Positions 8,953 through 35,724 of a stretch of 44,734 nucleotides of DNA are shown in pieces. This DNA is from a virus (lineage: Duplodnaviria > Caudoviricetes), in the IMG/VR virus record IMGVR_UViG_3300044709_000083, positions 1 through 44,734 of that record; one strand, given 5' to 3'. A program made the position numbers and the translations under genes. The notes beneath the pieces are model-generated. The model saw nothing but the letters and a program-made list of their open reading frames with translations, had not been told where the DNA came from and ran no database searches. Numbering within the stretch: position 1 is the first letter of the stretch; every line of letters begins with the position of its first letter.

Positions 8953-9104
8953 CGCTTCGCCTTCGCTTTCAACCACGCCCAGATCGCGCACTCAGACGGC
9001 TCCATGTCCACGCACGGGCAAATATGCGGAAAGGGACGGAACAGCCCTTTCACCCAATGGCCCAACACAACGGCGACGTTGCCCTGTGGCGCGTCTTCAC
9101 TCAC
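8937..9104 (-). CDS. Small hypothetical protein (55 aa)
   Basis: GTG overlapping the MTase stop; MSEDAPQGNVAVVLGHWVKG...CPC...C. Confidence 0.45.
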   Translation of the reverse strand: MSEDAPQGNVAVVLGHWVKGLFRPFPHICPCVDMEPSECAIWAWLKAKAKRCASR

Positions 9105-9820
9105 GCTGGCTCCGTGCGCTCCCGCTGATGCCCTTCGGCCCGCTGGTGGGCCTGGCGCGCGGCGGCGGCGGCTTCTGGCTCAACGTCATACATCGCGGTC
9201 AAGGCACCCTGTTGCAACCGTCGTGCGGCGATCTCGCAATACCGTTCCTCGCGCTCAATGCCCACACAGGACCGCCCCAGGCGCTTACAGGCCACGAGCG
9301 TGGTCCCGCTGCCCATGAACGGGTCAAGCACCGTCTTGACGCTCTCAGGGGCTTGTAGGAGCGCCCAGCGCATGACGGATTCTGGCTTCTGGGTCGGATG
9401 CCAGCGCTTGCCGTCAGGGTTTCGATTCTCCCGAAAGAGTTTGGCGGGCTGTTCAAAGTTCGTCCACGCCAACTCAAAGTCTGCCATCGTGTCCATTGGA
9501 GACGACTTGACCCACGCCAGCCAACAACGAGACGGAGGCATTCGGTAATAATTCCCGCCCCACACGATTTGAGACGGCGCGAACCGAAGCAGGTTGATGA
9601 GGTCGCCATCGGGGATCGTCTCTGCGTCCCATTCCTTCGCGTCGTCATACATCGGGTTAGACGCCCATGTGCCGCCCGACCAGCGCTCACCGTGACCATA
9701 CGGCGGATCAGTCAGCAAGAGGTCGAACGATTGCGTCCGCAGCCCTTCCCATTGGTCGATCACCTCGCGGCAATCGCCAAAAAAGATGGTCTGCCCGTCT
9801 TGCTGGTAATACGGTTTCAA
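9101..9820 (-). CDS. DNA N4-cytosine/N6-adenine methyltransferase (beta class)
   Basis: DLLLTDPPYG (motif IV), HPTQKP, VLDPFMGSGTT (motif I). Confidence 0.93.
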   Translation of the reverse strand: MKPYYQQDGQTIFFGDCREVIDQWEGLRTQSFDLLLTDPPYGHGERWSGGTWASNPMYDDAKEWDAETIPDGDLINLLRFAPSQIVWGGNYYRMPPSRCWLAWVKSSPMDTMADFELAWTNFEQPAKLFRENRNPDGKRWHPTQKPESVMRWALLQAPESVKTVLDPFMGSGTTLVACKRLGRSCVGIEREERYCEIAARRLQQGALTAMYDVEPEAAAAARQAHQRAEGHQRERTEPA

Positions 9821-9975
9821 CGAATGATCTCAGTCGGTGGCTGCGGTAAAGCGATCGGTGGCGTCCATCCATCGTCCCCAGTGCGCGACAAATCTTTCTC
9901 TTTCCACACGCGCGGCGGGCGGATCACGCGGATGTCCGCAGGGGTGATTGGGCGGCGCGGTTCAACCGGTGGCAT
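9817..9975 (-). CDS. Small Pro-rich hypothetical protein
   Basis: Fills the gap between the two MTases with overlaps. Confidence 0.4.
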   Translation of the reverse strand: MPPVEPRRPITPADIRVIRPPRVWKEKDLSRTGDDGWTPPIALPQPPTEIIR

Positions 9976-10639
9976 GGAATAGATCCTCCACTGCATCGAT
10001 CGGCGCCTGCCTGCGCTGAACGGCTCGCAAGAGGTCGGCTCCCGTGACATGGGTTGGGACGTGCCACGTATCGACGTTGAAGGTGATCGCTCCCGGCCGG
10101 TAGCACACGACGATGGAATCGAACATCGCTGGATCCGCGATTGCTTTCCCGTCTTCTCGCCAGCGCTTCTCATTCAGCCGCGGCACGCCATCCTCGAAAA
10201 ACGTGATGCGCGAATCACAGAACAGCAGATCGCTCGCACCTAGCACTGAGCCAATCCGCAGCACATGCGCCTTGAAGGCTTTCGTCACGCGCAAGGGCAG
10301 CAAAAGCGTCGTCGTGAATCCGTGACGCAGCGCTTGAGACTTCGCCAGATACAGCAACGGCTGAATAAACGGCCCATAGGGAGGATTTGAATAGCCATTC
10401 GTGCCGAAGTCGTGCCACGGCGCGGAGAGTGCATCCGATTCGCCGCAACTGCTCTCAGGACCGAACCAACGAGCGCACAGATGACGCTGAGCGTCGGCCG
10501 TCAAATCGAGATCGAATGGTCCGAAATCTTCATTGAGCTTCTTGAACACCAGTGGCGGCGTTTCCCAACACGCATTGCCGGTCGTCAGATCCTCTTGATC
10601 GGTGCCGCTCGTCATGCGCTTGCTGGTCGCTCTGTTCAT
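9962..10639 (-). CDS. Phage N6-adenine DNA methyltransferase (phage Dam-like family)
   Basis: WETPP..F..L...FGPFDLDL, NPPYG, LLLP, RITF motifs. Confidence 0.88.
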   Translation of the reverse strand: MNRATSKRMTSGTDQEDLTTGNACWETPPLVFKKLNEDFGPFDLDLTADAQRHLCARWFGPESSCGESDALSAPWHDFGTNGYSNPPYGPFIQPLLYLAKSQALRHGFTTTLLLPLRVTKAFKAHVLRIGSVLGASDLLFCDSRITFFEDGVPRLNEKRWREDGKAIADPAMFDSIVVCYRPGAITFNVDTWHVPTHVTGADLLRAVQRRQAPIDAVEDLFHATG

Positions 10640-14744: not shown

Positions 14745-14935
14745 ACGCCAGCCTCATACCGCGTCACCGATCGGAGCTTCAGCGCCTTGAGGAGCTTCGG
14801 TCCCGGTGCCCGTCGTGCGTGAATTACGTCGTTGAGATAACTGGCTGAGACGCCCAAAGACTTCGCGGCGCTCACTTGCGAACCGGCCTTGTCCACCAGC
14901 GCAGCCAGCCGCTTCAGAATGTCAATCGAACTCAT
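14741..14935 (-). CDS. Cro-like HTH transcriptional regulator
   Basis: GSQVSAAKSLGVSASYLNDVIHARRAPG HTH_XRE pattern; first gene of the leftward early operon. Confidence 0.85.
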   Translation of the reverse strand: MSSIDILKRLAALVDKAGSQVSAAKSLGVSASYLNDVIHARRAPGPKLLKALKLRSVTRYEAGV

Positions 14936-15031
14936 ACGCCGATACTACACGTATCCGCGAATGTGCGTCAAGCACAAAATGAAATTTATTTTGTTGTCGC
15001 TTTCCCTGAATCCGCGCATATGCTGGAGCGC
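14936..15031. promoter_or_regulatory. Divergent promoter region, both transcripts apparently leaderless, with a central palindrome
   Basis: Minus strand: TTGACG-18 bp-TAGTAT-6 nt-ATG. Plus strand: TATGCT (15019-15024)-7 nt-ATG. Imperfect palindrome ACAAAATGAAATTTATTTTGT at 14974-14994. Confidence 0.7.
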
Positions 15032-16045
15032 ATGAGCACCAACCTCCAATGGGGCGGCATCCACCGCGTCAGCCTCTCCCTGCTCGGCCTACAAGCGCTC
15101 GCCGCCGCCGTGACGCTCCCCTGCTGGCCGCGCATCGGCTTTCACCCGTTCGACGGTAGCCCGCTGTGGTGGCTGCTGCTGCTCGGCTATGGCATCCCGT
15201 GGCTGTGCCTGGTGTCCTGCCCGAGCCGCAGCGCCATCGAACAGCGCATCGCCGAAGTGTTGCTCGCGATGCTGCTGATACTCACGGGCTCGCTGATCGC
15301 CGGCCCCGCGCAATACGTCGTCGTCACCTGGAACCGCCCGCTGATGGATACGCCGCTGCTGGCGCTCGAGCACGGCTTACGCTTCGATGTCCCTCGGCTC
15401 GCGCACTGGATCGGCCACTATCCACAAATCTGCGACTGGCTCGGCTGGGGCTACGGACAGACGACGCCGCAACTGCTGATCCTGCCGGCGCTTTTAGGCG
15501 TCGTGCTCAAGGATAAGGCCGCGATGTGGGAACTCGTCTGGCACGCCACGCTCTGCTCGTTCCTCTGCGTGCTCATCTTCGGCCTCGTCCCGACCGGCGC
15601 CCCCGCTGAGTATTACAACACCGCGCATATCGCCCGCTGGCTCGCACAGCTCCAGAACGGTCAGCCGATCAACGGCCTGCACTACGGCACGCTGCAAGGG
15701 CTGATTTCGTTTCCGTCGCTGCATGTGTTGTGGGCGTGGCTGTTCACCTGGAGCGTGCGCCGGCATCGCTGGCTGTTCGCGATCCTGCTGCCGATCAATC
15801 TGCTGATGGGCGCGGCGACGATTCTGCTCGGGCTGCACTTCGGCGTCGATCTGCTCGGGTCACTGGCCGTGGCGACGGTCAGCGTGGCGTCGTATCGGGT
15901 CGTGTCAGCGCCCGCCCGGTTTCGTCTTTTCGCTCGGATCGTTGAAACGTCGCCGCGCCTGATCTCGCTCAGATGGCTTGACCATCACGCGATCGACACC
16001 CCAACTTCTCGAGCAAATCTGGCACACGATGAAGGTGCCATCTGA
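15032..16045 (+). CDS. PAP2-superfamily multi-TM phosphotransferase/phosphatase (Aur1/Ipt1 inositolphosphotransferase-like)
   Basis: About 7-8 hydrophobic segments; LMDTPL, VPTGAP, ISFPSLHV and ATILLGLHFGVDLLG (SLH...HxxxD catalytic set). Confidence 0.85.
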   Translation: MSTNLQWGGIHRVSLSLLGLQALAAAVTLPCWPRIGFHPFDGSPLWWLLLLGYGIPWLCLVSCPSRSAIEQRIAEVLLAMLLILTGSLIAGPAQYVVVTWNRPLMDTPLLALEHGLRFDVPRLAHWIGHYPQICDWLGWGYGQTTPQLLILPALLGVVLKDKAAMWELVWHATLCSFLCVLIFGLVPTGAPAEYYNTAHIARWLAQLQNGQPINGLHYGTLQGLISFPSLHVLWAWLFTWSVRRHRWLFAILLPINLLMGAATILLGLHFGVDLLGSLAVATVSVASYRVVSAPARFRLFARIVETSPRLISLRWLDHHAIDTPTSRANLAHDEGAI

Positions 16046-21220: not shown

Positions 21221-21952
21221 TTACGGGAGACCGTAGAGGGTGAACGTCGAGCCATTCGTAAAGGCCGTGCCTTCCGTGGCGAACGTAACGCGCGTGATCG
21301 GGGCCGTCGATTTGAAGCGAAACGTAAACAGGCCAATATTGCCGCCAAGTGTCCCATCATCGTAGCCGTGCGCAATAAGGATCCGCTTCTGAAAGACGGT
21401 GCGCGCATAGTTGATGAGGGTGATCTCGCCCGTCGCGGCGATGTCGGTATTGCCTGATTGCGGAATCGCCGCCCAAAACGCCCCGGCAATCGTCGGCGTC
21501 ACCGGCGTGGCGTAGGCGCTGCTGTTTTGACTCCCGATCCGATACGTCGAACTGTAGTCCGCCGCCGTCACATCGTTGTTGATCCTGACCCGCGCGATCA
21601 CCCCGTCCGTGCCCGCCTGCGTGTCCTGCACGTCATAGAGAATCTTGAGCGAGGTATACGTGCCGGGAATGCTCGTGAAGTCGACCGTGGTCTGGCTGCC
21701 CGCGCAGACGATCTGCGCGATCTGCACCATGCCGCCTGCCGTGCCCGTGGCCCCGGACGCGCCAGTCGCCCCTCGGTCCCCGCGTGGCCCCGGAATCCCG
21801 AAGGCATCGAGGCCATCAGCCCCGTCGAAGCCTTGCGGTCCCGGCGGTCCTTGGATGACCGTCGCCGTCCCAGGGGCCCCGGTCGATCCGGTCTGTCCCG
21901 CCGGTCCCGTGAGGCCGCCGACGACGTTGTGATAGCCCTTCCGCTGTCTCAT
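21221..21952 (-). CDS. Collagen-repeat tail fibre/receptor-binding protein
   Basis: Gly-X-Y repeats, then VDFTSIPGTYTSLKI...TAPITRVTF...GSTFTLYG tip domain. Confidence 0.8.
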   Translation of the reverse strand: MRQRKGYHNVVGGLTGPAGQTGSTGAPGTATVIQGPPGPQGFDGADGLDAFGIPGPRGDRGATGASGATGTAGGMVQIAQIVCAGSQTTVDFTSIPGTYTSLKILYDVQDTQAGTDGVIARVRINNDVTAADYSSTYRIGSQNSSAYATPVTPTIAGAFWAAIPQSGNTDIAATGEITLINYARTVFQKRILIAHGYDDGTLGGNIGLFTFRFKSTAPITRVTFATEGTAFTNGSTFTLYGLP

Positions 21953-24900
21953 GGCCTCGGTGCCCCTCGCCCTGTCACGAGCCCGCGCGCCACGTCGAGC
22001 GCGTTCTCAGGTGCCGTCTTCTCGTCTTGCACATCCATGAGGTAGCCGATCGGCTTGCCGAGGGCTCCAAGGGGAAGATTCGTGATCAGCCCGAGGATGC
22101 TGAGAAAGTCCTTGACTTCCTGCTTCCGCGAACTGTGGCCCGCGAGATCCTTGATGCCCGAGCCGATCATCCCGGCCGTGGGGGAAATGCGAATGTCGTC
22201 ATCGTAACTCTGATCGGTATAGACCGCCCCAAACGCCGCCGTCGCGAACTGCCCCGCAATCGGGAACATGGAGAATGCCGTCTTCACCGATGACCCGAGG
22301 AACAGGTTGAAGATTTCGTCTAGATGCGTGTCGTCGTCGTCGTCGTCCCAGTTGCCGCTCAGCGCATTCAAAATGCCGTTACTCACGGCCGATGAGAGCA
22401 GGAGGCCGAGCGTCCAGACCGAGCCAATGCGTGCGACGCGCGCCGCGAGCCCACGATCCGAGCGCATCGCGATCCCGGTCTCGGTCGTCGTCAAATTCAG
22501 CAACATGTTGAAGTAGGTCGAGAACATCGCCATCGACCGAACGAAGGGCGTATTCGCTTCAAACCGTGAGACATCCTCCGGAAAGAACGAGCCTTGCGTC
22601 TGCCGCACGATACTGTCCGCGTAGCGCACGGCATCGAATCCATGCACGCCTTTCGCAACCGCGTCATCCTTCGCCGCGAGATACACGATGTGATTTACGA
22701 TGTTCTGTGACCCGCTCGCGAGGATCTGACTATGCGCGCGTGTGAACGCGGCCGCCTTCCCGTAGACGGACGGATTCAGCAGGATGTCGTTGACTTGCTG
22801 CTCGATCTCAATCGCTTGTGAGGTGAGAAACGTATCCATGAAGGCCGACTCTTCACGGATCATCGTGCCCATCTCTTGCGGCGCTCTGAGATAGCGCCAG
22901 GCGGCGTTGAGCATAAACCGCTTGTTCTCGATCTTCACGCCCGCCACGATTGCGCCCGTGAACTGTTGCAGCCCGTTGTTGACCGAATACGCCAGCGCCT
23001 GTAGGCCGGTGCGCGTCCGCACCGCCGTCATGAACCGATCCAGCCCCTTCCACTTCCCAGCTTCGTTGATCCGTTGCGTGGCCGAGCGCATCAGCCACGG
23101 CATCAGGAGATCCGCCCCCGCATGCGGGTCATATCCATCAAGCACGCTACGAAGTCCCTTATCCGTCACGAGCCGCGACACGTCTCTGACGGCCGGTTGA
23201 ATGTGCGTGAACCGCAACGCCCAGTCGAGATGTTGCGGAATAAACGCCAGATTCATCGCCAGCGGTTCAAAGACGCGCACGCGCGCAATGGTCGAACGAC
23301 GGCCCACGGTCGGCAGCGTAAAGCTCGTCCCAGACTCAAACGACATCTGTTTCTCGTTGCGAATCTCCGCCGCCTTCGACATCAGCGGGTCGGCCAACGC
23401 CGGCACGTAGCCGCCGCGGTAGGTGCCCCACGGTGTCTCGATCGGATCGGCCTTTACCTCCTTGAAGTAGAAACCGTAGATCGCGTGGTGCGCCTTCTGA
23501 AGTTCCGGCTTCAGCGACTCAAACAGATCCCAGATGCCTTGCGCGAAATCGTAATGTGCCTTGGTGAGCACACCCTCTCGTTGCAGTCGGGCTTCTGTGG
23601 CGTCCCACCGAGACGTATCTAGCACGTCATGGTCATCAATCGTGCCCCATCCCCGGCCGACTAGCCACTTCGCCATATTGCTCGTGGGACCAGTGCGATT
23701 GCCGGTGTGGAGCAACGCGCCGAGCAGTTCGGACATGCCACCCGTGCCATCCGCCCCGAACGTATACGAGACGCGCTCGCCCTGTTTGTTCAACGCCCAG
23801 AGTTCAGGCGCGGCAATCTTGGCCGTGGTTAGGGTCGATTGAATCGGATCGAGCAGCGCGCGATACTCCGTGAGCCGCTGCACCTTGGCCCGCCGAAACA
23901 CGTTGACTCGGTCCTTGACGGCATTGAACAGATACGTTCGGAATGGGCCGAGTTGCCCCTCGTCCATCGCCGTGACCCAGAACTCCACGCGCGAGAGCCA
24001 CGCCTCGCCGCCGAGTGCCAGATTCTTGAGATGATCGAACTTGCTCGGTCGGCCTGCGACGCCGATGTCAGCGTAAGGCGCCTCGCCGCGGGTCTTGAGC
24101 TGCGCGACCATCGCCGCTCGAGCGGTCTCCCTCGAGACCAACTGACCATCAATCTCGATCTGGCCTTCCCGCTTCGAGGTGTCCCAGAGCGCAGCCACAA
24201 GGTCTCGCACGCCGCGGAAGTCATCGACCGTGACCTGTGCGAGCGGCCCCTGCACGCGCCCCACATCGAGATAGTGATCGAGCAGTTCTGAGACTTGCGG
24301 ATCGTAGGTGCGAAGCGTGGTCAGCGCATTCTCGACATCCGCCACGCGATCCGGATAGACCAGCGGCGCGACAAGCGCTCGAGCCGCCGACACATACTCC
24401 ATCGAGCGCGTTTTCGCAAGATTCGCATCAGGCCGAAACAGCCGTTTCCACTGTGACTGTGCGGCGTCGATTTCGTCCCGCACCGCTGTGGCTTCGCGGT
24501 AGAGCGCCAGGTTCAGCAGTTCTTGCTGCTTGGCGAGGATGGCCCCTTGCCGGTCCTGATTCGTGTTCAGGAGGTCAAACGCCCGTTGACTGGCGCGCGT
24601 CGCTGCTGCGAGGAACGACCCGGCGCGGAGGTCTCGAACCTTGGTCCCGGCGATGCGCTTTTGCGCTTCGACCTTGAGCACTTGCGCCGAGGGAATCGTG
24701 CCCGCCATCGTCGTGGCAAGCGCGCGCAGTTCGGTTTGCACCACGGCTTGCCGATGATCCATGACGGCGGCTTGCGCGCGCTCCGCCAGTCGGCCATCGA
24801 GCACCAGATCCCCATGCTTCGCCACCATCCGGCGGTCGGTCTCGGTCTTGATGGCCGTCCCCATCGGCGGCGCGGCTTTCAACGCCTTCTGGAGTTCATC

Positions 24901-27900
24901 CCCAGACGCAAAGCCGAATTGATCCGCGAGCACATCAGGGCTGAGGCCCTTGAGCGGAACGGGCGTTTGCCCCGGCGTCAGGGAGGTGCCATCGGGATTC
25001 ATGCCCCTCAGGATGGCCGCGCGCGCCCGATACACCGGCTGTTGGTGTATCTCGCCCGTCACTTCGGCCCGCATGGTCTTCCGTTCGGCCTTCCACCATG
25101 CTTGCTGTTCGCGCTGCAAGTCGCGGAGCGCCTGATCCTGTAAGTCCGCCTTGGCTTTATCGGACGCCGTTTGCACCACGTCGCGGTAGGCGGCAAAAGC
25201 TGGCTCCGTCATGCCGGCCGTGGTCGCATCGAGGAACAACGGCGAGACCTTCGCCTCTCGCTGCGCCTCTTCAATGGCCGCATCACTCGCCAGTAAGCGG
25301 TCAAACACCCGGCGCACGTCATCCGTCAGGTGGATGTCGAAGCCTGCCGCGCGACTCAGCCCCACGAGGTTCCGGTAGATGCCGATCATCCACGAGCGCA
25401 CTTTCGCAAAGACGCCACGCAATTCAGCGCTCGGTGCTTTGCCTTCGAGCATGAACGCCTCGAAGCTCCGTGCGAACTTCTCATGCTCCGGCGTGCCGAC
25501 TTGCGCACGAGACTCCACGCCCAGATACGGCAGGATGATGTCGCGGTAATCGGCCATGAACCGCTGCTGCGATGGCGTCAGCGTCGAAGGATCCAGCGTG
25601 CCGAGTTGGTCGGTAATGTCCCCCATCATTTCGAGGAACAGGTGTCCTCCGAACTCGTGGTAAATGGTTGAGAGATTTCGGCCCTCGAAAAGCTGGATCA
25701 GCGGCGTCTGACCGGGGCGCATCGAGAACGCCCCGAGATGTTCCTCTTTGTTCGCGTCCTGCGCTTGGAAGAACTCTTGGCGCTCCTTGGCGGTAACGGG
25801 CGTGCCATCCTTGTGGGTGATGTCGACAATCGAATCATCGAAGACCACGACGTTGCGCGTTTCCTTTGGCCGGAGGTCGTAGACCTCAGACACGGCCGCC
25901 TCACGCTGGCCGGGTGTCGCGTTGGGATAGGCGTCCTTCAGCCCATCGAATGCTTCATCGGCCGTTGCCCCTGATTGCTTGAACGATTCCGCCGCGTGGA
26001 GATAGGCGGGATCTCCTTGATATGACGGTCGCACAATGCGGCGTGAGCCTTGGTCGAGATAGCGCAAACCGGGAATGCCAGCCCGCAAGAGCGCCTTGCT
26101 CGCCGCTGCCGTGATCGCGGCTTCGTTCCCCGTGCCGCCGAACGACACCGCCACCGCTGCGTAGATCGATTCGCCGGTCGCACCCGCGTGGGCCGTAAAG
26201 GGACGGGCGGTGTCGGCTCCGCCTTTCTCTTTCCACAGACGCCGCAATCCTTCCTGCACGCTCTGCGGCTGTTCGCTAAACGTCGCGTTCCAGTCGAGCA
26301 TTTTGGCGATCTGCTCGTCTGGAATGTCGACCTGATAGAGACGGCCAGCGGGCTTTTCAACCGTATATCGCGAGGCAAACTCGGCTGCTAGTTGATAGCG
26401 TCGAAAGTTCTGCGCTTCTTCTGGCCGTTCCTTGACGAGGTCGCTGTATGTCTTGATGAGGTCTTCCGCGCTACGTCCCGCATAAATGTATTGAATCGTT
26501 GTGGTGGCAACAGAATCAGCAACGGGCTTGCTGATGTCGTCGAGCGTCGTATACAGATGGTCAGCGATTTTTCGTCGCGCGGCATCATCGCTAATGCCGA
26601 CGCCATCCTCCACGAAACGAGCTTTTTGCTCGCTCACTGAGCGCTGATACCCCTCCGCGACGTTCGGATTCTCTGCGAAATACAGCCCGTGTCCATAGGC
26701 TTGCGCGCCTTCCCCTGTGCCGATCTTTTCGGTGGAGAACCGCTCGAAATCGTGCGGCGAGCCGTGGAACAGCGATTGAAACAGGGCCGCCGACGCTGGC
26801 GCGGCAGCCACCGCAGACGGGGGGGCACCCGCGACGGATTCAGCCTGCACACCAGCGGTCGGCGGCGTCTCTGTGCCGGAGACTACCTCCGGCAACCATT
26901 GACGGGTCAGCGCCTCCACATCCAGCCCGACCCGATCGGCCACATTCGGAAAGGCTGGCCCGAGGATGGCCGCCGTCGTTTCCGCCGTCCCCCGTTCCAT
27001 CCCGGCCGCCACGAGTTGCCCCGTGATGGCCTCGCGCACCGCAGACGGTGCTTGTATCGTTTCTGACACAGGCGGTTCGATCGGCAGATTCTTGCCAAAG
27101 GCTTCGGCTTCCCGCGCGTTCATCTGCCGGGGCGCTAGCCTGAGTTCTTTGGCGAAAAAGGCGTTGTGCTCCGTGGCGGCAAGATTCGCGACGTAGGCCG
27201 TGGTCGGAATCGGCAGATCTTCGCCGGTGCGCGCCGCTTCGAAGTAGGCCGTGGGACTGCCCGTCACTTCCTGGGCAATCTGCGCCGGGTCGATCCCCTT
27301 CGATTGCCAATAGGTGTTCCACGTCTCGATCGGGGCGTAGAGTGTTTCGGCCGGCGTATCCTTGGTGGCTTGGTCGACCAATTCGGCCAGCTTCTCCGGG
27401 CTGCGCTGGAGCGTCTTGGACTCCGTCGCCGCCTGCCCGAGCTTGTCGATCAGATGGCCCGCCGCATGACCCGCCACCGACGTGGCCCCGACTGCCGTGA
27501 TCGTGCTGATGAGTGTCGCGGCCGCCTGCGACGGGCGCTCACGCAGGTAGTCGGCAAACGTCCGGTCCTTGTTCGCCGGCAGGAAGGCCCATTCGTTCAA
27601 GTCTTGCAGGACCGTCGCAACCTGCTCCCCGGCAATCTCAGGCACAAGCTGATGCGCCAGAATCGTGAGCATTCCGCTCTTGGCGGTCAGATCCTTGAGC
27701 AGCCGATGGGCTGGAATGAACTCCGTCGCGACTTCGATCGTGCCCTGAATCGACCCAGCCGCCAGACTGCGCCCCACGCTCGCGCCTTGCCCGCGCGCTT
27801 GCGCGTAGGTCTGCCCGCCCGTGGTGAGGCCGACCAACGACAAGAGCGACGTGCCCCCACTGATGGCCCCGAGAATGAGCGACGGTGCCATGTTGCCGAT

Positions 27901-28494
27901 GGATTCGACCCCGCCGTAAATGCTGCGTTCCACGAGCCCAGCGCCCGTCTGTGGCCCTTTCACCCGTTCGGCCAACTGTCCCGCCACCAGCGCGCTCTGA
28001 GCGCCCCTGGCGGCCCAAGAGGGCAGTCCCAAGGCATCGTAGGCAGCCTGCTCGAAGCCGTAAAATCCTTGGGCGAAGTCCAAGAGTCCTGCCCCGGCCG
28101 CGCCAGCGAGGTTCCGCGGCACCTTCCAGAGCCGTTCCATTGTGGTCAGCGCCGGCAGATCGTCCTTGACGAGGGCGGCATGGTCAGGCTGTGAGGCAAA
28201 CGCCGCGAGCGCAGGCGCCTCGGTCAGCAGCCGGTCATAATTCGGCGCTTCGAGCGTGGCCCGCTTCTCAAACAGGGACAGGTTGCGTTTGACGACATCA
28301 GCCGGCACATTGAACTGCTCAGCCAACCGGAGCGTGCGCGCGGCCGTCTCGGGCGTCGTATCCGCCGACTGCCGCACGGCCGACTTCAGGCCAATCACCT
28401 GATCTTGATGGGTCTCCCGTAGCACCTCGTCGTAAGGATTCGCACTTGGCGCTTGGGCGCCCGCCAAGAGGTCATCGTAGGGATTGATCGGCAT
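21949..28494 (-). CDS. Large polyvalent internal virion (DNA ejection) protein with ADP-ribosyltransferase-like and zincin-like domains
   Basis: About 2181 aa from ATG 28494 (MPINPYDDLL); FHGSPHDFERF...GTGEGAQAYGHGLYFAE...NVVVFDD; YHEFGGHLF...HEKFARSFEAF. Confidence 0.85.
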   Translation of the reverse strand: MPINPYDDLLAGAQAPSANPYDEVLRETHQDQVIGLKSAVRQSADTTPETAARTLRLAEQFNVPADVVKRNLSLFEKRATLEAPNYDRLLTEAPALAAFASQPDHAALVKDDLPALTTMERLWKVPRNLAGAAGAGLLDFAQGFYGFEQAAYDALGLPSWAARGAQSALVAGQLAERVKGPQTGAGLVERSIYGGVESIGNMAPSLILGAISGGTSLLSLVGLTTGGQTYAQARGQGASVGRSLAAGSIQGTIEVATEFIPAHRLLKDLTAKSGMLTILAHQLVPEIAGEQVATVLQDLNEWAFLPANKDRTFADYLRERPSQAAATLISTITAVGATSVAGHAAGHLIDKLGQAATESKTLQRSPEKLAELVDQATKDTPAETLYAPIETWNTYWQSKGIDPAQIAQEVTGSPTAYFEAARTGEDLPIPTTAYVANLAATEHNAFFAKELRLAPRQMNAREAEAFGKNLPIEPPVSETIQAPSAVREAITGQLVAAGMERGTAETTAAILGPAFPNVADRVGLDVEALTRQWLPEVVSGTETPPTAGVQAESVAGAPPSAVAAAPASAALFQSLFHGSPHDFERFSTEKIGTGEGAQAYGHGLYFAENPNVAEGYQRSVSEQKARFVEDGVGISDDAARRKIADHLYTTLDDISKPVADSVATTTIQYIYAGRSAEDLIKTYSDLVKERPEEAQNFRRYQLAAEFASRYTVEKPAGRLYQVDIPDEQIAKMLDWNATFSEQPQSVQEGLRRLWKEKGGADTARPFTAHAGATGESIYAAVAVSFGGTGNEAAITAAASKALLRAGIPGLRYLDQGSRRIVRPSYQGDPAYLHAAESFKQSGATADEAFDGLKDAYPNATPGQREAAVSEVYDLRPKETRNVVVFDDSIVDITHKDGTPVTAKERQEFFQAQDANKEEHLGAFSMRPGQTPLIQLFEGRNLSTIYHEFGGHLFLEMMGDITDQLGTLDPSTLTPSQQRFMADYRDIILPYLGVESRAQVGTPEHEKFARSFEAFMLEGKAPSAELRGVFAKVRSWMIGIYRNLVGLSRAAGFDIHLTDDVRRVFDRLLASDAAIEEAQREAKVSPLFLDATTAGMTEPAFAAYRDVVQTASDKAKADLQDQALRDLQREQQAWWKAERKTMRAEVTGEIHQQPVYRARAAILRGMNPDGTSLTPGQTPVPLKGLSPDVLADQFGFASGDELQKALKAAPPMGTAIKTETDRRMVAKHGDLVLDGRLAERAQAAVMDHRQAVVQTELRALATTMAGTIPSAQVLKVEAQKRIAGTKVRDLRAGSFLAAATRASQRAFDLLNTNQDRQGAILAKQQELLNLALYREATAVRDEIDAAQSQWKRLFRPDANLAKTRSMEYVSAARALVAPLVYPDRVADVENALTTLRTYDPQVSELLDHYLDVGRVQGPLAQVTVDDFRGVRDLVAALWDTSKREGQIEIDGQLVSRETARAAMVAQLKTRGEAPYADIGVAGRPSKFDHLKNLALGGEAWLSRVEFWVTAMDEGQLGPFRTYLFNAVKDRVNVFRRAKVQRLTEYRALLDPIQSTLTTAKIAAPELWALNKQGERVSYTFGADGTGGMSELLGALLHTGNRTGPTSNMAKWLVGRGWGTIDDHDVLDTSRWDATEARLQREGVLTKAHYDFAQGIWDLFESLKPELQKAHHAIYGFYFKEVKADPIETPWGTYRGGYVPALADPLMSKAAEIRNEKQMSFESGTSFTLPTVGRRSTIARVRVFEPLAMNLAFIPQHLDWALRFTHIQPAVRDVSRLVTDKGLRSVLDGYDPHAGADLLMPWLMRSATQRINEAGKWKGLDRFMTAVRTRTGLQALAYSVNNGLQQFTGAIVAGVKIENKRFMLNAAWRYLRAPQEMGTMIREESAFMDTFLTSQAIEIEQQVNDILLNPSVYGKAAAFTRAHSQILASGSQNIVNHIVYLAAKDDAVAKGVHGFDAVRYADSIVRQTQGSFFPEDVSRFEANTPFVRSMAMFSTYFNMLLNLTTTETGIAMRSDRGLAARVARIGSVWTLGLLLSSAVSNGILNALSGNWDDDDDDTHLDEIFNLFLGSSVKTAFSMFPIAGQFATAAFGAVYTDQSYDDDIRISPTAGMIGSGIKDLAGHSSRKQEVKDFLSILGLITNLPLGALGKPIGYLMDVQDEKTAPENALDVARGLVTGRGAPRP

Positions 28495-30890: not shown

Positions 30891-31291
30891 GGCGGCTTGG
30901 CTCCCAAGGATGGACCGATCGGCCCGAGCGGAATCACGAACGACCGCCCCGGTAATTCATTGCCGCCGAGATGTCGAATGAGCGCATCGGTATCCTCCGT
31001 CAGCGACCCGGTCAGCACGGCGCCGGCCCCGAGCGCCCGCAGCGTCGAGAACATCAAGGCAATGGCGTATTGCACGACCCGCCCGCGTTTCCGGTGCGCC
31101 GGATGCACCCACGCGCCTTCGACGTGCCAATACCGAATGGCGGACCAGCACCCGATAATCTGCCCGTCCTGCTCGACGACCACGATGCGCGCGTGATCGT
31201 CATTCAGGTGCGGCCAGACCTGTTCCAGTTCGGTCCCGGTCAATCGCGGCCATTCGTCAACAGGCAGAAGGCGCGCGTGCATGCGACTCAC
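30878..31291 (-). CDS. GNAT-fold acetyltransferase-like virion-module protein
   Basis: VVEQDGQIIG, WVHPAHRKRG (acetyl-CoA motif A). Confidence 0.8.
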   Translation of the reverse strand: MSRMHARLLPVDEWPRLTGTELEQVWPHLNDDHARIVVVEQDGQIIGCWSAIRYWHVEGAWVHPAHRKRGRVVQYAIALMFSTLRALGAGAVLTGSLTEDTDALIRHLGGNELPGRSFVIPLGPIGPSLGAKPPCLQ

Positions 31292-33570
31292 CCGCCGAGC
31301 TCCACGCTCGGAATGATGCCGAGCACAGTGCAGGGGAGCGGATCTGTCACGCGAATCCGCACCTTGCCCGTGGCTTCAAACTTCGCGGTCAGATTCGTTT
31401 CGAGTTGATCCGTGACATCGCGCGTGGCCCGTGGATCCCACGGTTCCGGCCGCCACCGGAAGAGATGTGTCGCGTCAGGGCCGACCATCAGATTGGGCGA
31501 GGTCGTCTCTACCAGAATCGTGGACGCCTGCGTGCGCTTGCGCTTGTCGCGAATACTCGTCCCCTGCACATCGAGGTCGAGCGTTTCAATCTCCGCAAAT
31601 CGAATCGGCAAGCCCGCGTGGATCACGCCGTAAGAGGTCGAGAGCGTCACCGACCCGCCCGTCACGCGGTAGGTCTCCGCATTCGCCGCCGTCGGATCGC
31701 CGTCAAATTCGACCTGTGAATCCCCGAGCACGGCGACAATTTCCCCTTCGAGATGATCGAGGTTCGTAATCGTGGTCACGGGTGCCCCATCGTAACTCAG
31801 GCCCGCGTCGACAAAGAACGCATCTTCGTCGGTCACTTCCCGCGACGCAAAGCGTTCCACGAACCGCACGGTGGCCCCGTCGATCGTGCGCTTGACGATG
31901 AAATACACCACGTCTTCGCCGGCCAGCCCAATGTCATGGTCAGGCACCACGAGCACCTGTTCAAACTCCCCAGCCGCCCCGGTATCGTGGCGATGCCAGC
32001 CGAGAATTTCCTGTTCGCGGAGATAGGTGCAGCCCAGAAGCACGCCGTCTTCGCGCACGATCCAGGCGATCGAATGCGGCTGCTGCTGATACGCAAGCCC
32101 CGTCAGCGCATGCCCGAAAAAGAGATGCGGTGAAAAGATGGTCAGGTCGGACCCGCCGTAGTCGGCTTCCCCGGCCGGCGTGTTCTCCTGCCGGAAGTCA
32201 CGGATCACCGTGCCGCGGGCTTGGATGTAGAGGATGGTGTTGCCAATGACAATCGGCCGCACCGAGGACCGCGGCGCCTGATGATGTTGATCCACGCCGC
32301 CGTAGGCCAAGGCGCCCGCGTAGCCTTCCTGACTCGCGTTGATGGCGAGTGGGGTAATCCCGCCCGCTGGATCGCCCTTGATGACCCATTCCGCCGAGTC
32401 ATTGAAGATGATCAGGTTCTTCAGGCGGATGAGATGCCCGACCGGACTCAGATAGTCGCTGTCGAGCACGAAACTGATGGCGTCGTCGTCTTGGAGCGGT
32501 GTGGAGATGGAGAAGTTCGTATACGCCCCGACTTGCGACATCCAGACCTTTTCGCGGTCGTTGTTCGTGTTCGCCAGGACGAGCCGTTGTTGGAAGTAAC
32601 CCACCACGCTCGGGTAATTGTCCGTCGAATCAAAGAGCACTTGCGGCGTCGGTGGTGTGACGGTGAAATCAGGGAGCACGCCGACATCGTTGAACGCATT
32701 GGTTGTGGCCGTGCCGATGAACCCGAAGACGCCGTTCCCGTAGGGATCGCTGTAGATGTAGTATTCGGCTGCGCCAGTGACGGTCGTCCACGTCAGCACG
32801 TTCGGCGCAAGCACGGTCGGCGTCGCCACGCCCGTGCTGTCGACTTGGTTCGAGGCGTAGCTTTCCTCGTAGCTGTCGATCTTCGCGGCCGTGACCACGT
32901 AGTGATATTCCGCCGTCCCCGCCCCGCCGGCACTCGCGCCCAAGCCGGTCGGCGCATCGATGCTTGGCGTGGTCACGAACGGAATCAGCCGCCACGTCGT
33001 ATGGCCCAAGCGTTGTAAGACCAGCGGCGCATAACTTGGATGCACGAGCATGACCGTATCGGCCTGCTGCGCGAAGTTGATCCGCCCGACATCAGCCGCG
33101 ATGTATGGCGTGGGAATCTCGTAAATGTCGTCGGTCAGTGGATACCAGAACAGCGGCGAACTCGCGGGCGTGTGCCCGGTCCCGTCCTGAATGCTGTAGT
33201 AATTGATGCCCGCCGACACGACCACATCCCCGACCACGTAAGCCGTGCCGCCCGCATACGCCGGGACACTCGTGACGATGACCGGCGCGTGATGCCAGTA
33301 GAACCGGATATACCCGTCCCCAAACTCCAGCACGTAGGTCTGATCGCCCGCCTCGAAGATGAACGGAATCAAGCGCGTCGGATCGTCGGAGTTCTTCACC
33401 GTCGCGATGTAGCGCGTGCCGGGGCGGTTCGTCACCGTGCCGTGGCGCTGCACCATGAAGTTCCGGCACACGGCCAGCCCCGACAGGTATTTGACCGTGT
33501 CGGCTCGAGCGCCGAGCGCTGGCCCTACTTCGCCAGAAGAAAATGACCGTTGTATGACGCTCTGAGTCAC
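31288..33570 (-). CDS. Tail tubular protein B / nozzle
   Basis: QRSFSSGEV...CRNFMVQRHG.VTNRPGT, YPSVVGYFQQRL, GWHRH motifs. Confidence 0.92.
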   Translation of the reverse strand: MTQSVIQRSFSSGEVGPALGARADTVKYLSGLAVCRNFMVQRHGTVTNRPGTRYIATVKNSDDPTRLIPFIFEAGDQTYVLEFGDGYIRFYWHHAPVIVTSVPAYAGGTAYVVGDVVVSAGINYYSIQDGTGHTPASSPLFWYPLTDDIYEIPTPYIAADVGRINFAQQADTVMLVHPSYAPLVLQRLGHTTWRLIPFVTTPSIDAPTGLGASAGGAGTAEYHYVVTAAKIDSYEESYASNQVDSTGVATPTVLAPNVLTWTTVTGAAEYYIYSDPYGNGVFGFIGTATTNAFNDVGVLPDFTVTPPTPQVLFDSTDNYPSVVGYFQQRLVLANTNNDREKVWMSQVGAYTNFSISTPLQDDDAISFVLDSDYLSPVGHLIRLKNLIIFNDSAEWVIKGDPAGGITPLAINASQEGYAGALAYGGVDQHHQAPRSSVRPIVIGNTILYIQARGTVIRDFRQENTPAGEADYGGSDLTIFSPHLFFGHALTGLAYQQQPHSIAWIVREDGVLLGCTYLREQEILGWHRHDTGAAGEFEQVLVVPDHDIGLAGEDVVYFIVKRTIDGATVRFVERFASREVTDEDAFFVDAGLSYDGAPVTTITNLDHLEGEIVAVLGDSQVEFDGDPTAANAETYRVTGGSVTLSTSYGVIHAGLPIRFAEIETLDLDVQGTSIRDKRKRTQASTILVETTSPNLMVGPDATHLFRWRPEPWDPRATRDVTDQLETNLTAKFEATGKVRIRVTDPLPCTVLGIIPSVELGG

Positions 33571-33581
33571 TGTGCTACACT
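33554..33581 (+). promoter_or_regulatory. Putative antisense promoter with extended -10
   Basis: ATGACG, 16 bp, TACACT (33576-33581) preceded by TGc; the structured element begins 5 nt downstream. Confidence 0.45.
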
Positions 33582-33585
33582 CACC

Positions 33586-33758
33586 GAACTCTCTGCGTCA
33601 CGCAGCAGCGGTAGCGGATCTGGCGTATCCGCCCGTCGACAGCGGTTTGCTCAGTGATGGCTGTCCCCGTAACTGGACCATCCGGTGAATGTGGTTCGAA
33701 TCCACCCCTGATCGTGGTGCCGGAGTCAACGCGATAAGACGCAGGGCGCAGAGAGTTC
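33586..33758 (+). ncRNA. Candidate 173 nt structured RNA with a tRNA-like T-arm
   Basis: 12 bp perfect terminal stem GAACTCTCTGCG/CGCAGAGAGTTC; internal hairpins; GTGG-TTCGAAT-CCAC at 33691-33705. Confidence 0.55.
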
Positions 33759-35724
33759 ATCGCCCCTCAATCCATTCCGCTTCGCCGTGCGCTTCCGGCT
33801 GATGCTCGCGACTGGAGACGACGGCCGCCGTATCGAACGTCGCCAGATACATCCCCCACGCCATCTGTGCCATCTTCGGCTCACGGCTCAGACTTGGCGC
33901 CATCTTGCTCGCCAGGTTCCACGCCAGCGCGTTCTCAAAGAGCGCATCCGAAAAGTTCGCAGAGCAGGGCACATAGACCGTGTATTCCAGTTGGGCATCT
34001 ACTTGGTTCGTGAAGATGACGAGTTCCTCCGTGGCCGGCACGCCGGTAATCGTGCGCCCCACGCGAAAGGGAATCGGCTTGCGATCGAACCGTCGTCCAC
34101 TCCCAGGATTCACGAGCCGCCGTGCGAACAGGCAATCGGTCGGATAGCGATACGAGTAGACCCAATCGCCGTTGATCGGGTCGGTCGGTTCGCCGTCAAT
34201 CAATTCCATGTCATCGCCAGCCCCGGCATCCGTCGACTTGAGATATTTGGTCGCAAAGGACCACGGATAGGCCCGCAACGTCTCTTGCAGCGCCGGCAGA
34301 AAGAGCAGCGCGCCCGTGTAGGCTTCGCGGCTCGCTTCATCGAGCGCCGTGATGGTTTGCGAGACGCCAATTCGTAGAAGCGCCTGATTGATGACTTGAA
34401 TCTGAGTGGACACACAGCACCCGCATTCTTCAATGGTGATGACAATCTCGCAGTCGATCCCGTCCGTGTCGTCGTTCGCATCCGTGACGCGCGCCGTGAA
34501 CGTGAAGTCGCCCGACTCGGTCGGAATGCCGCTAATGAGGCCCGTGGCACTGTTCAACGAGAGGCCATTAGGTAAGGCGCCTGAGATGATCGAGAACGTG
34601 TAGGGTTCCACGCCCCCTGTGGCCGTGAGCAGCGCCGTATAGGGCACATGCGCTTCGCCCGAGGGCAGTTCGTCACAGACGAGGCTTGGCGGCGTGACAT
34701 CAGGGATCTCATGGACGGTGCCGATCGCGAGCCGAATCCGCACTTCGTCGATGACGCCGTCGAACAATTCGCCGTTGACGATGCCGCCGATGATCGTGGT
34801 CTCGGCCCCGATGCCGACCCCCACGAGGCTCGGATTGTTCAGCGCGCCCGTCGCTTCGACCACCTTGCCGATCTTGATGGTCCCCACGCCATGATCGATC
34901 TGCGCCGTCACCTTATAGACGGTGTCGAGCGCGATGTGCGTCGTGCCCGTCAGGAGTGGCCCCGGCAACGTCCCGGCGAGCAGCAGAAACCCCGTGCTCG
35001 TGACCTTGAACGCATAGCCGACATCCGAGAAGTAGTAGGTGCAGACCAACTGACTCCCAGCGCCGTTGTAACTCCGCAGCTTGAACTGCGCCTGAATCTC
35101 GAGCTCCGGCGTGGTCGCGCCTTCGAGCCGGATGATCTCGTCCATGTCGACGACATCGAACCCGCTCCCCGCCGGAAAATCGAAGGCTTTCCCGATCAGG
35201 CCGACCGTCGTCCGATCCTCGGTCAGATCGGTATTGCCCCGCCACGCCGCTTCGCCCGTGGCCGAGTTGCACGAATTGTGCACGATGCTATCCGCCGCAT
35301 CATCCGAGAAATGCCCGACAAACCCGTGCGTCGTCGGCGGCGTCACTTCCGCCACGGATGGGGTCGACACGTAGGCGGCCCAGACGGTATCAGGGTCTTC
35401 GAGCGAACTCCCGAGCGCGGGTGTCGCGCCCCACGCCATGTAGTAAAACCCGCGCGGGTCGTCCTCTTCGCCGGCCCATGCTTCTTTCAGCAGACCCGTG
35501 ACCGGGTCGTATTCGACCGTCTCAAACGGCAGGAGGTCGGTCAGCGCAGAATCGGCGTAGAACACGGGTTCGTGGGCCCCACACTCCCCGCCATTGGCGA
35601 CGGAGCGCAGACGTGAGGCCAGCGCCAGGATGACCGGATCAAGGTCGCTGGAGATCAGGAAGGGAAAATCATACAGCCCCCCATTCGGCAGCACCGCGAG
35701 GCGTTGGGAATGGGCGTAGGCCAT
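33757..35724 (-). CDS. Tail tubular protein A (adaptor) fused to N-terminal LamG-like and Ig-like (He_PIG) domains
   Basis: C-terminal 220 aa: INQALLRIG...YPWSFATK...YRYPTDCL...DALFENALAWNLA. Middle: LTATGGVEPYTFSIISGALPNGLSLNSATGLISGIP. N-terminal: LLPFETVEYD, FDGVIDEVRI. Confidence 0.85.
   Translation of the reverse strand: MAYAHSQRLAVLPNGGLYDFPFLISSDLDPVILALASRLRSVANGGECGAHEPVFYADSALTDLLPFETVEYDPVTGLLKEAWAGEEDDPRGFYYMAWGATPALGSSLEDPDTVWAAYVSTPSVAEVTPPTTHGFVGHFSDDAADSIVHNSCNSATGEAAWRGNTDLTEDRTTVGLIGKAFDFPAGSGFDVVDMDEIIRLEGATTPELEIQAQFKLRSYNGAGSQLVCTYYFSDVGYAFKVTSTGFLLLAGTLPGPLLTGTTHIALDTVYKVTAQIDHGVGTIKIGKVVEATGALNNPSLVGVGIGAETTIIGGIVNGELFDGVIDEVRIRLAIGTVHEIPDVTPPSLVCDELPSGEAHVPYTALLTATGGVEPYTFSIISGALPNGLSLNSATGLISGIPTESGDFTFTARVTDANDDTDGIDCEIVITIEECGCCVSTQIQVINQALLRIGVSQTITALDEASREAYTGALLFLPALQETLRAYPWSFATKYLKSTDAGAGDDMELIDGEPTDPINGDWVYSYRYPTDCLFARRLVNPGSGRRFDRKPIPFRVGRTITGVPATEELVIFTNQVDAQLEYTVYVPCSANFSDALFENALAWNLASKMAPSLSREPKMAQMAWGMYLATFDTAAVVSSREHQPEAHGEAEWIEGR

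What the first reader, a model, noticed from the sequence alone, without database searches (positions are those of the whole stretch)
33571..33758. 173 nt antisense structured RNA with a tRNA T-arm inserted between the two tail tube genes
Seen: adaptor and nozzle genes, normally abutting, are separated by 186 bp bounded by a perfect 12 bp stem. An alternative register exists (CTGCGTC/GACGCAG at 33738-33744). Inside are the hairpin GCGGAT/ATCCGC, an anticodon-like arm GTCC-CCGTAACT-GGAC, a canonical GG-TTCGAAT-CC T-loop and a partial acceptor-like pairing (TCAG/CTGA), but no D-arm or CCA. An extended -10 sits 5 nt before the stem. Inference: a tRNA-mimic ncRNA (Y-RNA-like concept, or a decoy for anticodon nucleases), or a relic tRNA-derived att site.
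Basis: partly seen in the sequence, partly recalled or inferred. Interest (0 to 1): 0.74.

Follow-up and report, generated by a model that had tools for sequence, protein, structure and literature searches.

The report
Clamped serine-tRNA look-alike in soil phage
A soil phage carries, between two tail genes that normally touch, a 173-base insert with paired ends and a tRNA-type T arm; it is predicted to fold like a tRNA, likely derives from a serine tRNA, lacks the CCA end needed to carry an amino acid, and would likely act as a tRNA decoy, but no related copy was found and its expression is untested.

Summary
The insert is real: a perfect 12-bp closing stem and a T arm in the adaptor-nozzle gap (19 and 11 of 20,000 shuffles); 191 of 217 relatives have a gap of 40 nt or less. 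33604-33714 folds alone as a class II cloverleaf with an over-long anticodon-position arm, a variable arm and a 4-bp T stem. It resembles class II tRNAs, most likely tRNA-Ser (weaker in a second genome). The acceptor stem is broken, there is no CCA end, and a 14-bp clamp closes the RNA. It is not YrlA, tmRNA, an allo-tRNA member or an att site. Closest known: T5 RNA1, same predicted plan. Best reading: a non-decoding tRNA-shaped small RNA from its own extended -10 promoter, likely a decoy (0.45); main rival a remodelled dead tRNA (0.3). No homologue, no covariation, no RNA data. The scan noted serine-tRNA look-alikes in other phages before.

The parts
33757..35724 (-). Tail adaptor gene (655 aa; adaptor domain in residues 439-655, fused behind an Ig-domain region); its stop TGA overlaps the 3' end of the clamp
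   Evidence: phrog_394 E 5.9e-33; PF05345 at 354-421
31288..33570 (-). Tail nozzle gene (760 aa), GTG start
   Evidence: phrog_376 E 3.4e-175 over residues 1-760
33571..33581 (+). Promoter-like extended -10 (TGTG-C-TACACT); weak -35-like hexamer at 33554-33559
   Evidence: only TRTGnTAnnnT in the genome, either strand; below the threshold of the -35/-10 scan; function inferred
33580..33585 (-). Shine-Dalgarno-like GGTGAG of the nozzle gene, overlapping the promoter-like site on the other strand
   Evidence: sequence; role inferred
33586..33599 (+). 5' strand of the closing clamp (12 perfect bp plus U.G and C-G)
   Evidence: pair probability 0.96-1.0
33606..33613 (+). Eroded acceptor 5' strand CAG(C)GG followed by U8-A9
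   Evidence: pairs in the fold of 33604-33714 alone; probability 0.01 or less in the 173-mer
33614..33632 (+). D-arm equivalent: 6-bp stem, loop with GG at 33622-23, can close to a UGGC tetraloop
   Evidence: probability 0.82-0.88; loop resembles the D loop of (8/4) tRNA-Ser
33633..33671 (+). Over-long arm at the anticodon position (39 nt against about 20): GACAGC/GCTGTC, G.G, 3 more pairs, 8-nt loop that holds U-GCU-C-A
   Evidence: 6-bp helix probability 0.98-1.0; comparison with tRNA-Ser
33672..33686 (+). Variable arm ACTGGA-CCA-TCCGGT
   Evidence: probability 0.61-0.81; all 10 tRNAs found with this stem motif are tRNA-Ser(GCU)
33691..33705 (+). T arm, 4-bp stem with canonical TTCGAAT loop
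   Evidence: probability 0.66-0.68; 11 of 20,000 shuffles
33706..33713 (+). Eroded acceptor 3' strand; followed by G-TGG, no CCA
33708..33738 (+). Extra 3' hairpin that competes with the acceptor pairing
   Evidence: probability 0.43-0.54
33745..33758 (+). 3' strand of the closing clamp
33581..33760 (-). 59-codon open frame from the ATGA overlap with the adaptor stop to the nozzle SD; probably not a protein gene
   Evidence: codon score below all 91 in-frame windows, GC3 0.62 against 0.66-0.86; no homologue; as open in 4,212 of 20,000 shuffles

Best explanation
The 173-base insert has paired ends, a canonical T arm and no CCA end, is predicted to fold as a class II tRNA likely derived from a serine tRNA, is likely transcribed on the + strand from its own extended -10 promoter, and would likely work as a non-decoding tRNA-shaped decoy. 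Steps: (1) shown: lineage-specific insert, clamp, T arm, no CCA. (2) Predicted: D, long anticodon-position, variable and T hairpins form inside the clamp; the acceptor pairing is weak. (3) Inferred (about 0.9): descent from a class II tRNA; Ser about 0.7 of that, by 20-25 inserted bases that lengthened the anticodon arm. (4) Inferred (about 0.7): host sigma-70-type polymerase starts near 33586-33588; with no intrinsic terminator the 3' end would be trimmed back to the clamp, which would protect both ends. (5) Inferred, untested: it cannot be charged or read codons, but would show the D/T elbow and serine variable arm, the shape by which SerRS knows tRNA-Ser, and so could titrate a tRNA-Ser-directed defence nuclease or another tRNA-binding host protein.
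For: Clamp and T arm beyond chance. Unconstrained fold of 33604-33714 is a full cloverleaf; D, long arm, V and T helices have probability 0.6-1.0 in the 173-mer. Clamp probability about 1.0 on + against 0-0.29 on the mRNA strand in context. Unique TRTGnTAnnnT at the right distance. With the T arm left out, tRNA-Ser ranks 1, 2, 4, 13 among 47 tRNAs of G206, mean z 2.74, reached by 0 of 60 controls; rerun 0 of 150 and 0 of 150. Anticodon-blind variable-arm motif: 10 of 10 tRNAs found are Ser(GCU), and the element's loop independently holds U-GCU. 69 of 85 and 65 of 83 aligned bases match a Ser(CGA) and a Ser(GCU) gene (both picked as best). T5 RNA1, annotated 'tRNA-like stable RNA with unknown functions', folds to the same plan. 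Serine identity rests on the variable arm, not the anticodon (PMC9976931, passages); a retron HNH nuclease depletes all four tRNA-Ser (PMC12475279, passages).
Against: No homologue anywhere searched, so no covariation. Core fold z only -0.31; acceptor pairs 0.01 or less in the 173-mer and the full cloverleaf costs 3.2 kcal/mol. Minus strand folds about as well (z -2.27 against -2.42). In G324 Leu scores above Ser (mean z 2.07 against 1.56; Ser ranks 2, 6, 21, 33), and the top z is reached by 3-10 of 150 controls in the two genomes. An (8/4) tRNA-Ser model gives 12.3 bits, E 0.31, in another register; profile HMMs without the T arm do not find it; Rfam and ARAGORN call nothing. The -10 overlaps the nozzle SD spacer, the -35 is weak, and there is no terminator on +. 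In the FORC82 retron study extra T5 tRNA-Ser did not give escape, and MenT3-type toxins prefer a CCA end (PMC7450476, passages), which this RNA lacks.
Confidence: 0.45

Rival explanations
1. A dead, remodelled tRNA gene: a class II tRNA captured with its promoter and flanking inverted repeat, now drifting without function.
For: Broken acceptor stem, C at position 37, no CCA; core fold no better than shuffles; absent from 217 related loci and 80 related virus records, many of them fragments.
Against: Five helices and the 12-bp clamp are intact, and the perfect 6-bp long-arm helix is built from bases that are insertions relative to tRNA-Ser, a gain that decay does not predict. The clamp sits exactly at the ends of the gap.
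Confidence: 0.3
2. The working part is on the late mRNA (minus strand): the 59-codon frame, or the stem that joins adaptor stop and nozzle SD, keeps translation coupled, or the stem is an RNase III-type cut site.
For: Frame starts at the ATGA overlap and stops inside the nozzle SD; 19 of 23 relatives' gaps of 100 nt or more are at least 80% covered by sense ORFs; first stop that late in 984 of 20,000 shuffles.
Against: Non-coding codon use, no homologue, 21% of shuffles are as open; clamp probability 0-0.29 on this strand; does not explain the tRNA arms or the + strand -10. It may be what lets the phage tolerate the insert rather than its purpose.
Confidence: 0.1
3. A working or processed tRNA: RNase P and 3' trimming release a chargeable (8/4)-type tRNA-Ser.
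For: 4-bp T stem, long D stem with UGGY tetraloop and long V arm are the allo-tRNA marks (PMC5389517); G follows the eighth base after the T stem.
Against: Acceptor pairing is 5 bp with a bulge, not 8; anticodon-position arm is about twice the normal length with an 8-nt loop; model score E 0.31.
Confidence: 0.05
4. Relic attachment site (3' half of a host tRNA).
For: Related phages carry 3' tRNA halves elsewhere in their genomes (L295-L298).
Against: D and anticodon-side sequence are present too; the 3' strand is not an intact tRNA end; no integrase among the ORFs scanned, apart from a 34-residue match to a short 'integrase' profile; the site lies inside the tail operon.
Confidence: 0.04
5. 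Y RNA-like tether for a host Ro60 protein.
For: Long terminal stem plus a tRNA-like domain is the general Y RNA plan (PMC4201824).
Against: No GNCGAAN0-1G motif, arms not permuted, no TROVE hit among 53 ORFs, no Rfam match.
Confidence: 0.03
6. A small mobile element with 12-bp terminal inverted repeats, or a chance arrangement.
For: Perfect terminal inverted repeat; one other 12-bp repeat within 300 nt exists in the genome.
Against: No target-site duplication, single copy, no similar DNA in phage or plasmid records; T arm and repeat together in 0 of 20,000 shuffles.
Confidence: 0.05

Closest known systems
Phage T5 RNA1 and RNA2 (AY543070, 'tRNA-like stable RNA with unknown functions') and T4 RNA C (rnaC, NC_000866, 'small, stable RNA')
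   Same: RNA1 is predicted to fold as acceptor, D, over-long anticodon-position arm, variable arm and T arm; RNA C has long arms and a 3' T arm. Phage-encoded, not annotated as decoding.
   Different: Those sit in tRNA clusters of large phages with a better-paired acceptor and 5-bp T stem. This one is alone in a 44.7 kb podophage without tRNAs, antisense inside the tail operon, with an eroded acceptor, 4-bp T stem, extra 3' hairpin and a 14-bp clamp. No sequence match to them.
Bacterial class II tRNA-Ser (Rfam RF00005), e.g. Ser(CGA) L449 and Ser(GCU) L356
   Same: Collinear D, anticodon-side, variable and T sequence (69 of 85 and 65 of 83 aligned bases); U8-A9, D-loop GG, T loop, variable-arm motif.
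   Different: 20-25 extra bases, no 7-bp acceptor, no 5+7+5 anticodon arm in the favoured fold, C37, no CCA; below ARAGORN and Rfam thresholds.
(8/4) allo-tRNA / (8/4) tRNA-Ser (Mukai et al. 2017, PMC5389517)
   Same: Long D stem with UGGY tetraloop, long variable arm, 4-bp T stem; soil and phage origin; some members are inactive with five-stem junctions.
   Different: No 8-bp acceptor; anticodon arm doubled; model built from 9 phage members scores it 12.3 bits, E 0.31; no exact motif match in the paper's tables.
Bacterial Y RNA YrlA (Chen et al. 2014, PMC4201824)
   Same: Terminal stem carrying a tRNA-like domain.
   Different: YrlA runs T, acceptor, D (permuted), has a GNCGAAN0-1G motif and lies beside a Ro60 gene; none of these holds here.

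Membership tests
Functional tRNA (RF00005) | 7-bp acceptor stem with discriminator and CCA or a free 3' end for CCA addition | tested here: not met
   5 bp with bulge, followed by ATCGTGG; clamp closes the ends
Functional tRNA (RF00005) | 5-bp anticodon stem with 7-nt loop, U33 and purine 37 | tested here: not met
   39-nt arm, 8-nt loop, C37; the short-arm alternative has probability about 0
Functional tRNA (RF00005) | T arm with TTCRA loop | tested here: met
   33691-33705, 4-bp stem
Functional tRNA (RF00005) | D arm after U8 with GG in the loop | tested here: met
   33612-33632, predicted fold
Functional tRNA (RF00005) | Score over family threshold | tested here: not met
   no Rfam or ARAGORN call
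tRNA-Ser ancestry | Long variable arm of serine type and closer likeness to Ser than to other tRNAs | tested here: inconclusive
   10 of 10 motif tRNAs are Ser(GCU); Ser first in G206, Leu first in G324
(8/4) allo-tRNA | 12-bp acceptor branch as 8/4 or 9/3 | tested here: not met
   T stem 4 bp but acceptor 5 bp with bulge; model E 0.31
(8/4) allo-tRNA | Long D stem with tetraloop and long V arm | tested here: met
Phage tRNA-like stable RNAs (T5 RNA1/RNA2, T4 RNA C) | tRNA-like plan with non-canonical, enlarged anticodon region | tested here: met
   predicted folds compared; a descriptive kind, not a sequence family
Phage tRNA-like stable RNAs (T5 RNA1/RNA2, T4 RNA C) | Accumulates as a stable small RNA in infected cells | not testable with these tools
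   no RNA run was listed for this DNA
Phage tRNA-like stable RNAs (T5 RNA1/RNA2, T4 RNA C) | Located in a phage tRNA cluster | tested here: not met
   genome has no tRNA call
YrlA / Y RNA | GNCGAAN0-1G motif near the 5' end | tested here: not met
YrlA / Y RNA | Permuted arm order (T, acceptor, D) | tested here: not met
   D precedes T (definition from PMC4201824)
YrlA / Y RNA | Ro60/TROVE gene nearby | tested here: not met
   no TROVE hit in 53 ORFs scanned against Pfam; the host genome is unknown
tmRNA | Alanyl acceptor with CCA, tag reading frame, family score | tested here: not met
   no ARAGORN or Rfam call; only an untagged permuted call at a 70% threshold
attP at a tRNA gene | Exact 3' tRNA half beside an integrase | tested here: not met

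The most novel reading that the evidence does not exclude
A processing-independent, end-clamped serine-tRNA decoy: a small phage has rebuilt a host tRNA-Ser into a closed RNA that keeps elbow and variable arm, cannot be charged, and can switch between folds that show different serine anticodons (U-CGA-C at 33636-40, U-GCU-C at 33648-52, U-GGA-C at 33674-78), to soak up tRNA-Ser-specific defence nucleases such as type I-A retron HNH effectors.
Probability: 0.12. Interest if true: 0.75.

Novelty: new variant of a known kind. Interest (0 to 1): 0.37.

Why it matters
Phage tRNA-like stable RNAs have carried the label 'unknown function' in the T5 and T4 records, and tRNA-Ser is now a known target of anti-phage defence. 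A lone, self-promoted, clamp-protected example in a small phage without other tRNAs would be a clean test of whether such RNAs act as decoys rather than as leftovers of tRNA clusters. Its value is limited for now: it is a one-off without relatives, host or expression data, and the scan has seen the kind in other phages.

Tried and rejected
Rfam at gathering score on the whole window and at E 10 on the region: no relevant family. ARAGORN default: none; lowered thresholds give poor calls throughout phage DNA, so they are no evidence. BLAST of the element against phage and plasmid records: only short or chance pieces. Six motif scans: viral contigs 5, 19, 28 and 39 stretches, metagenome contigs 0 and 6; none was a homologue. 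The TCAGTGATGG likeness to L167/L181 was followed and not supported by model R1. Single-sequence model R1: 49 and 40 records and 151 + 151 genomes gave only the element itself, one ordinary tRNA-Ser(GCU) and one chance hit in what looks like coding DNA. No RNA holder was listed among sequencing runs; this says nothing on expression. Run X2 is near-identical to the window and has no contig over 33695-33811, so it gives no covariation. The first-reader-arm constraint was off by one base; one search is the corrected figure. Host not determined: prophage relatives are scattered over many phyla and the Atlas gave only broad taxa. The + strand ORFs 14-601 and 848-1855 are shadows of a 578-codon minus-strand frame across the circular join. 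Cobalamin riboswitch, RNase P, 6S, retron and bridge RNA were considered from recall and dropped for lack of an Rfam match or a partner gene. Ten literature searches listed no paper on this element or on T5 RNA1/T4 RNA C function; the library lacks most older and subscription papers.

Full report
Setting. The window is a complete 44.7 kb phage genome with a 127-nt terminal repeat, held by soil and rhizosphere runs. The finding lies between the tail adaptor gene (33757-35724, minus, phrog_394) and the nozzle gene (31288-33570, minus, phrog_376). A contig of run X2, coded as another study than the possible source run, is identical over 33501-33694, so that part is unlikely to be an assembly artefact. 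The host is unknown.

Is the insert real? Of 241 related loci, 217 could be measured: 191 have 40 nt or less between the two genes, 3 have 41-99 and 23 have 100 or more; 19 of those 23 are at least 80% covered by small sense ORFs, and none of the 26 gaps over 40 nt has a T arm or a 12-bp inverted repeat (many loci are redundant prophages). The closest relative by capsid protein (L082, 77%) has no gap. In 20,000 dinucleotide shuffles of the gap a 4-bp T arm arose 11 times, a 12-bp inverted repeat 19 times, both never. TGTGCTACACT at 33571-33581 is the only TRTGnTAnnnT of the genome, although the stricter -35/-10 scan finds nothing and there is no terminator-like site on +. Global folding strength is modest: z -1.43 for the 188 nt, -2.42 for the 173-mer with the minus strand at -2.27, and 24 of 258 genome windows fold as well.

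Anatomy. Folded alone and unconstrained, 33604-33714 gives a cloverleaf: acceptor-like CAG(C)GG/CCCUG, U8-A9, a 6-7 bp D arm with GG in the loop, a 39-nt arm at the anticodon position, a 6-bp variable arm and a 4-bp T arm. Its energy is no better than shuffles (z -0.31; T5 RNA1 and RNA2 give -1.78 and -1.23). In the 173-mer the clamp has pairing probability 0.96-1.0, the D stem 0.82-0.88, the long-arm helix 0.98-1.0, the variable arm 0.61-0.81, the T stem 0.66-0.68, but the acceptor 0.01 or less, because a 3' hairpin competes; forcing the acceptor costs 3.2 kcal/mol. No CCA follows the acceptor strand. On the mRNA strand with flanks the clamp has probability 0 to 0.29, which favours the + strand.

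Ancestry. A covariance model of the core (R1, one sequence) found as its only match in 151 genomes of G057's phylum (G057 holds L219, titled Thermoanaerobaculia) an ordinary tRNA-Ser(GCU), 32.7 bits. An anticodon-blind search for the variable-arm stem before a T loop matched 40 and 20 of 301 genomes in two phylum samples, at rates near the reversed controls; 30 of 45 and 23 of 23 matches came as loci, one unpublished locus was left out, and of 56 matches read in 52 loci ARAGORN called 10 tRNAs, all Ser(GCU). The element's long-arm loop independently reads UU-GCU-CA, and GCGGTTTGCT is also the 5' anticodon side of the Ser(GCU) genes in L398-L400. With the T arm left out, the four Ser genes among 47 tRNAs of G206 ranked 1, 2, 4 and 13, mean z 2.74, reached by 0 of 60 random phage segments; a rerun gave ranks 1, 4, 9, 14 and 0 of 150 segments and 0 of 150 shuffles, while the single top z was reached by 6 and 3 of 150. 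In a second genome, G324, the result was weaker: Ser ranked 2, 6, 21, 33 (mean z 1.56; 3 and 4 of 150), Leu scored higher (2.07), Tyr ranked 39. The best pairwise alignments are 69 of 85 aligned bases to Ser(CGA) L449 and 65 of 83 to Ser(GCU) L356, with about 20 inserted bases placed differently in each; without the T arm 0 of 2,000 genome windows reached either score, but both genes were picked as best. Local profile HMMs without the T arm did not find the element. The D loop resembles that of (8/4) tRNA-Ser (PMC5389517); I fetched six phage (8/4) Ser(GCU) genes plus three neighbours, confirmed their structure by covariation and built a model: the element is the best of 7 hits in the window but scores only 12.3 bits, E 0.31, in another register. 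So class II tRNA descent is well supported, serine is likely, and allo-tRNA membership is not met.

The other strand. A 59-codon frame runs from the ATGA overlap with the adaptor stop to the nozzle Shine-Dalgarno. Its codon score is below all 91 in-frame windows of ten phage genes and typical of off-frame windows; it has no homologue or family; 4,212 of 20,000 shuffles are as open and 984 stop as late. I read it as possibly helping the operon tolerate the insert, not as a protein gene.

Homologues. None. BLAST, six motif scans, R1 over 49 and 40 records and 302 genomes and the scan's own index by place and sequence gave no related copy. The best nozzle relatives are 60% identical, so close phages are simply not in these collections; there is no covariation test for or against.

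Mechanism. Most likely a host sigma-70-type polymerase makes a + strand RNA from the extended -10, the ends pair and protect it, and the RNA shows a tRNA elbow and serine-type variable arm while being neither chargeable nor able to decode. Serine identity rests on the variable arm and shape, not the anticodon (PMC9976931, passages), and a type I-A retron nuclease depletes all four tRNA-Ser during phage defence (PMC12475279, passages), so a decoy role is plausible. Against it, extra T5 tRNA-Ser gave no escape in that study and MenT3-type toxins prefer a CCA end (PMC7450476, passages). Expression, fold and decoy action are all untested. I put this at 0.45, a remodelled dead tRNA at 0.3.

Known kinds. 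T5 RNA1 and RNA2 are annotated 'tRNA-like stable RNA with unknown functions' and T4 rnaC 'small, stable RNA'; RNA1 folds to the same five-arm plan. The lead to these came from earlier findings of the scan, which also describe serine-tRNA look-alikes in other phages; my serine reading was noted before that look-up. YrlA fails on motif, arm order and Ro60 neighbour (PMC4201824, first two of five parts read). Papers seen: PMC5389517 parts 2-3 of 5, supplement parts 1, 8, 23 of 26 and two searches (figures not visible, so the five-stem allo-tRNA drawings could not be compared); passages of PMC7609411 and PMC10690425 (its supplement of candidate models was not opened and may bear on novelty); others as listings only. 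Sigma-70 spacing, SD pairing and tRNA numbering rest on my own knowledge.

Verdict. A real, one-off tRNA-derived RNA candidate of a known but unexplained phage kind, new in its clamp, eroded acceptor and lone antisense position. New variant of a known kind; interest 0.37.

Noticed in passing
window 33757-35724 (-): The adaptor domain (last 217 aa) is fused behind a 440-aa region with an Ig domain; in the relative L082 a 555-aa ORF and a 208-aa adaptor ORF are separate.
   Followed up: no
L181 about 1335-1690 (-) (= L167); L164/L165 345-442; L299 about 1495-1625 (-); L188 group about 1493-1596; L396 about 1425-1520: Other phage or metagenome pseudo-tRNAs with paired acceptor and T arm but remodelled anticodon or variable regions; L181 has about 135 extra bases, L299 lies in a phage related to this one. 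Not homologous to the element by model R1 where tested.
   Followed up: partly
L305, L308, L315, L323, L324, L340 at about 588-673: (8/4) tRNA-Ser(GCU) genes in viral tRNA clusters that ARAGORN misses; structure supported by covariation.
   Followed up: yes
L295, L296, L297, L298 near 1501: 3' halves of tRNA genes (attP-like) in four related phage records, suggesting temperate relatives.
   Followed up: no
window 33636-40, 33648-52, 33674-78 (+): Three U-anticodon-C five-mers for serine (CGA, GCU, GGA) in the element; seen after the fact, two are paired in the favoured fold.
   Followed up: no
window 33606-12 and 33640-46 (+): Direct repeat CAGCGGT; either copy can pair with the acceptor 3' strand, giving two nested tRNA-like folds (-68.9 and -65.6 kcal/mol).
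   Followed up: partly
window 14876-16045 (+): PAP2_3 family membrane enzyme gene (PF14378, E 5.5e-28) on the strand opposite to the other genes; holds the genome's only other 12-bp inverted repeat within 300 nt (15809-15959).
   Followed up: partly
window 21949-28494 (-): Giant protein with LPD22 domain and a below-cutoff ART-PolyVal match; phrog_9880.
   Followed up: no
window 9101-10639 (-): Two neighbouring DNA methyltransferase genes (N6_N4_Mtase and Dam).
   Followed up: no
L083, L085, L087, L090, L093, L104, L119, L122, L126 upstream of the nozzle gene: The adaptor-nozzle junction is an insertion hot spot for small unrelated or shared ORFs in this phage group.
   Followed up: partly
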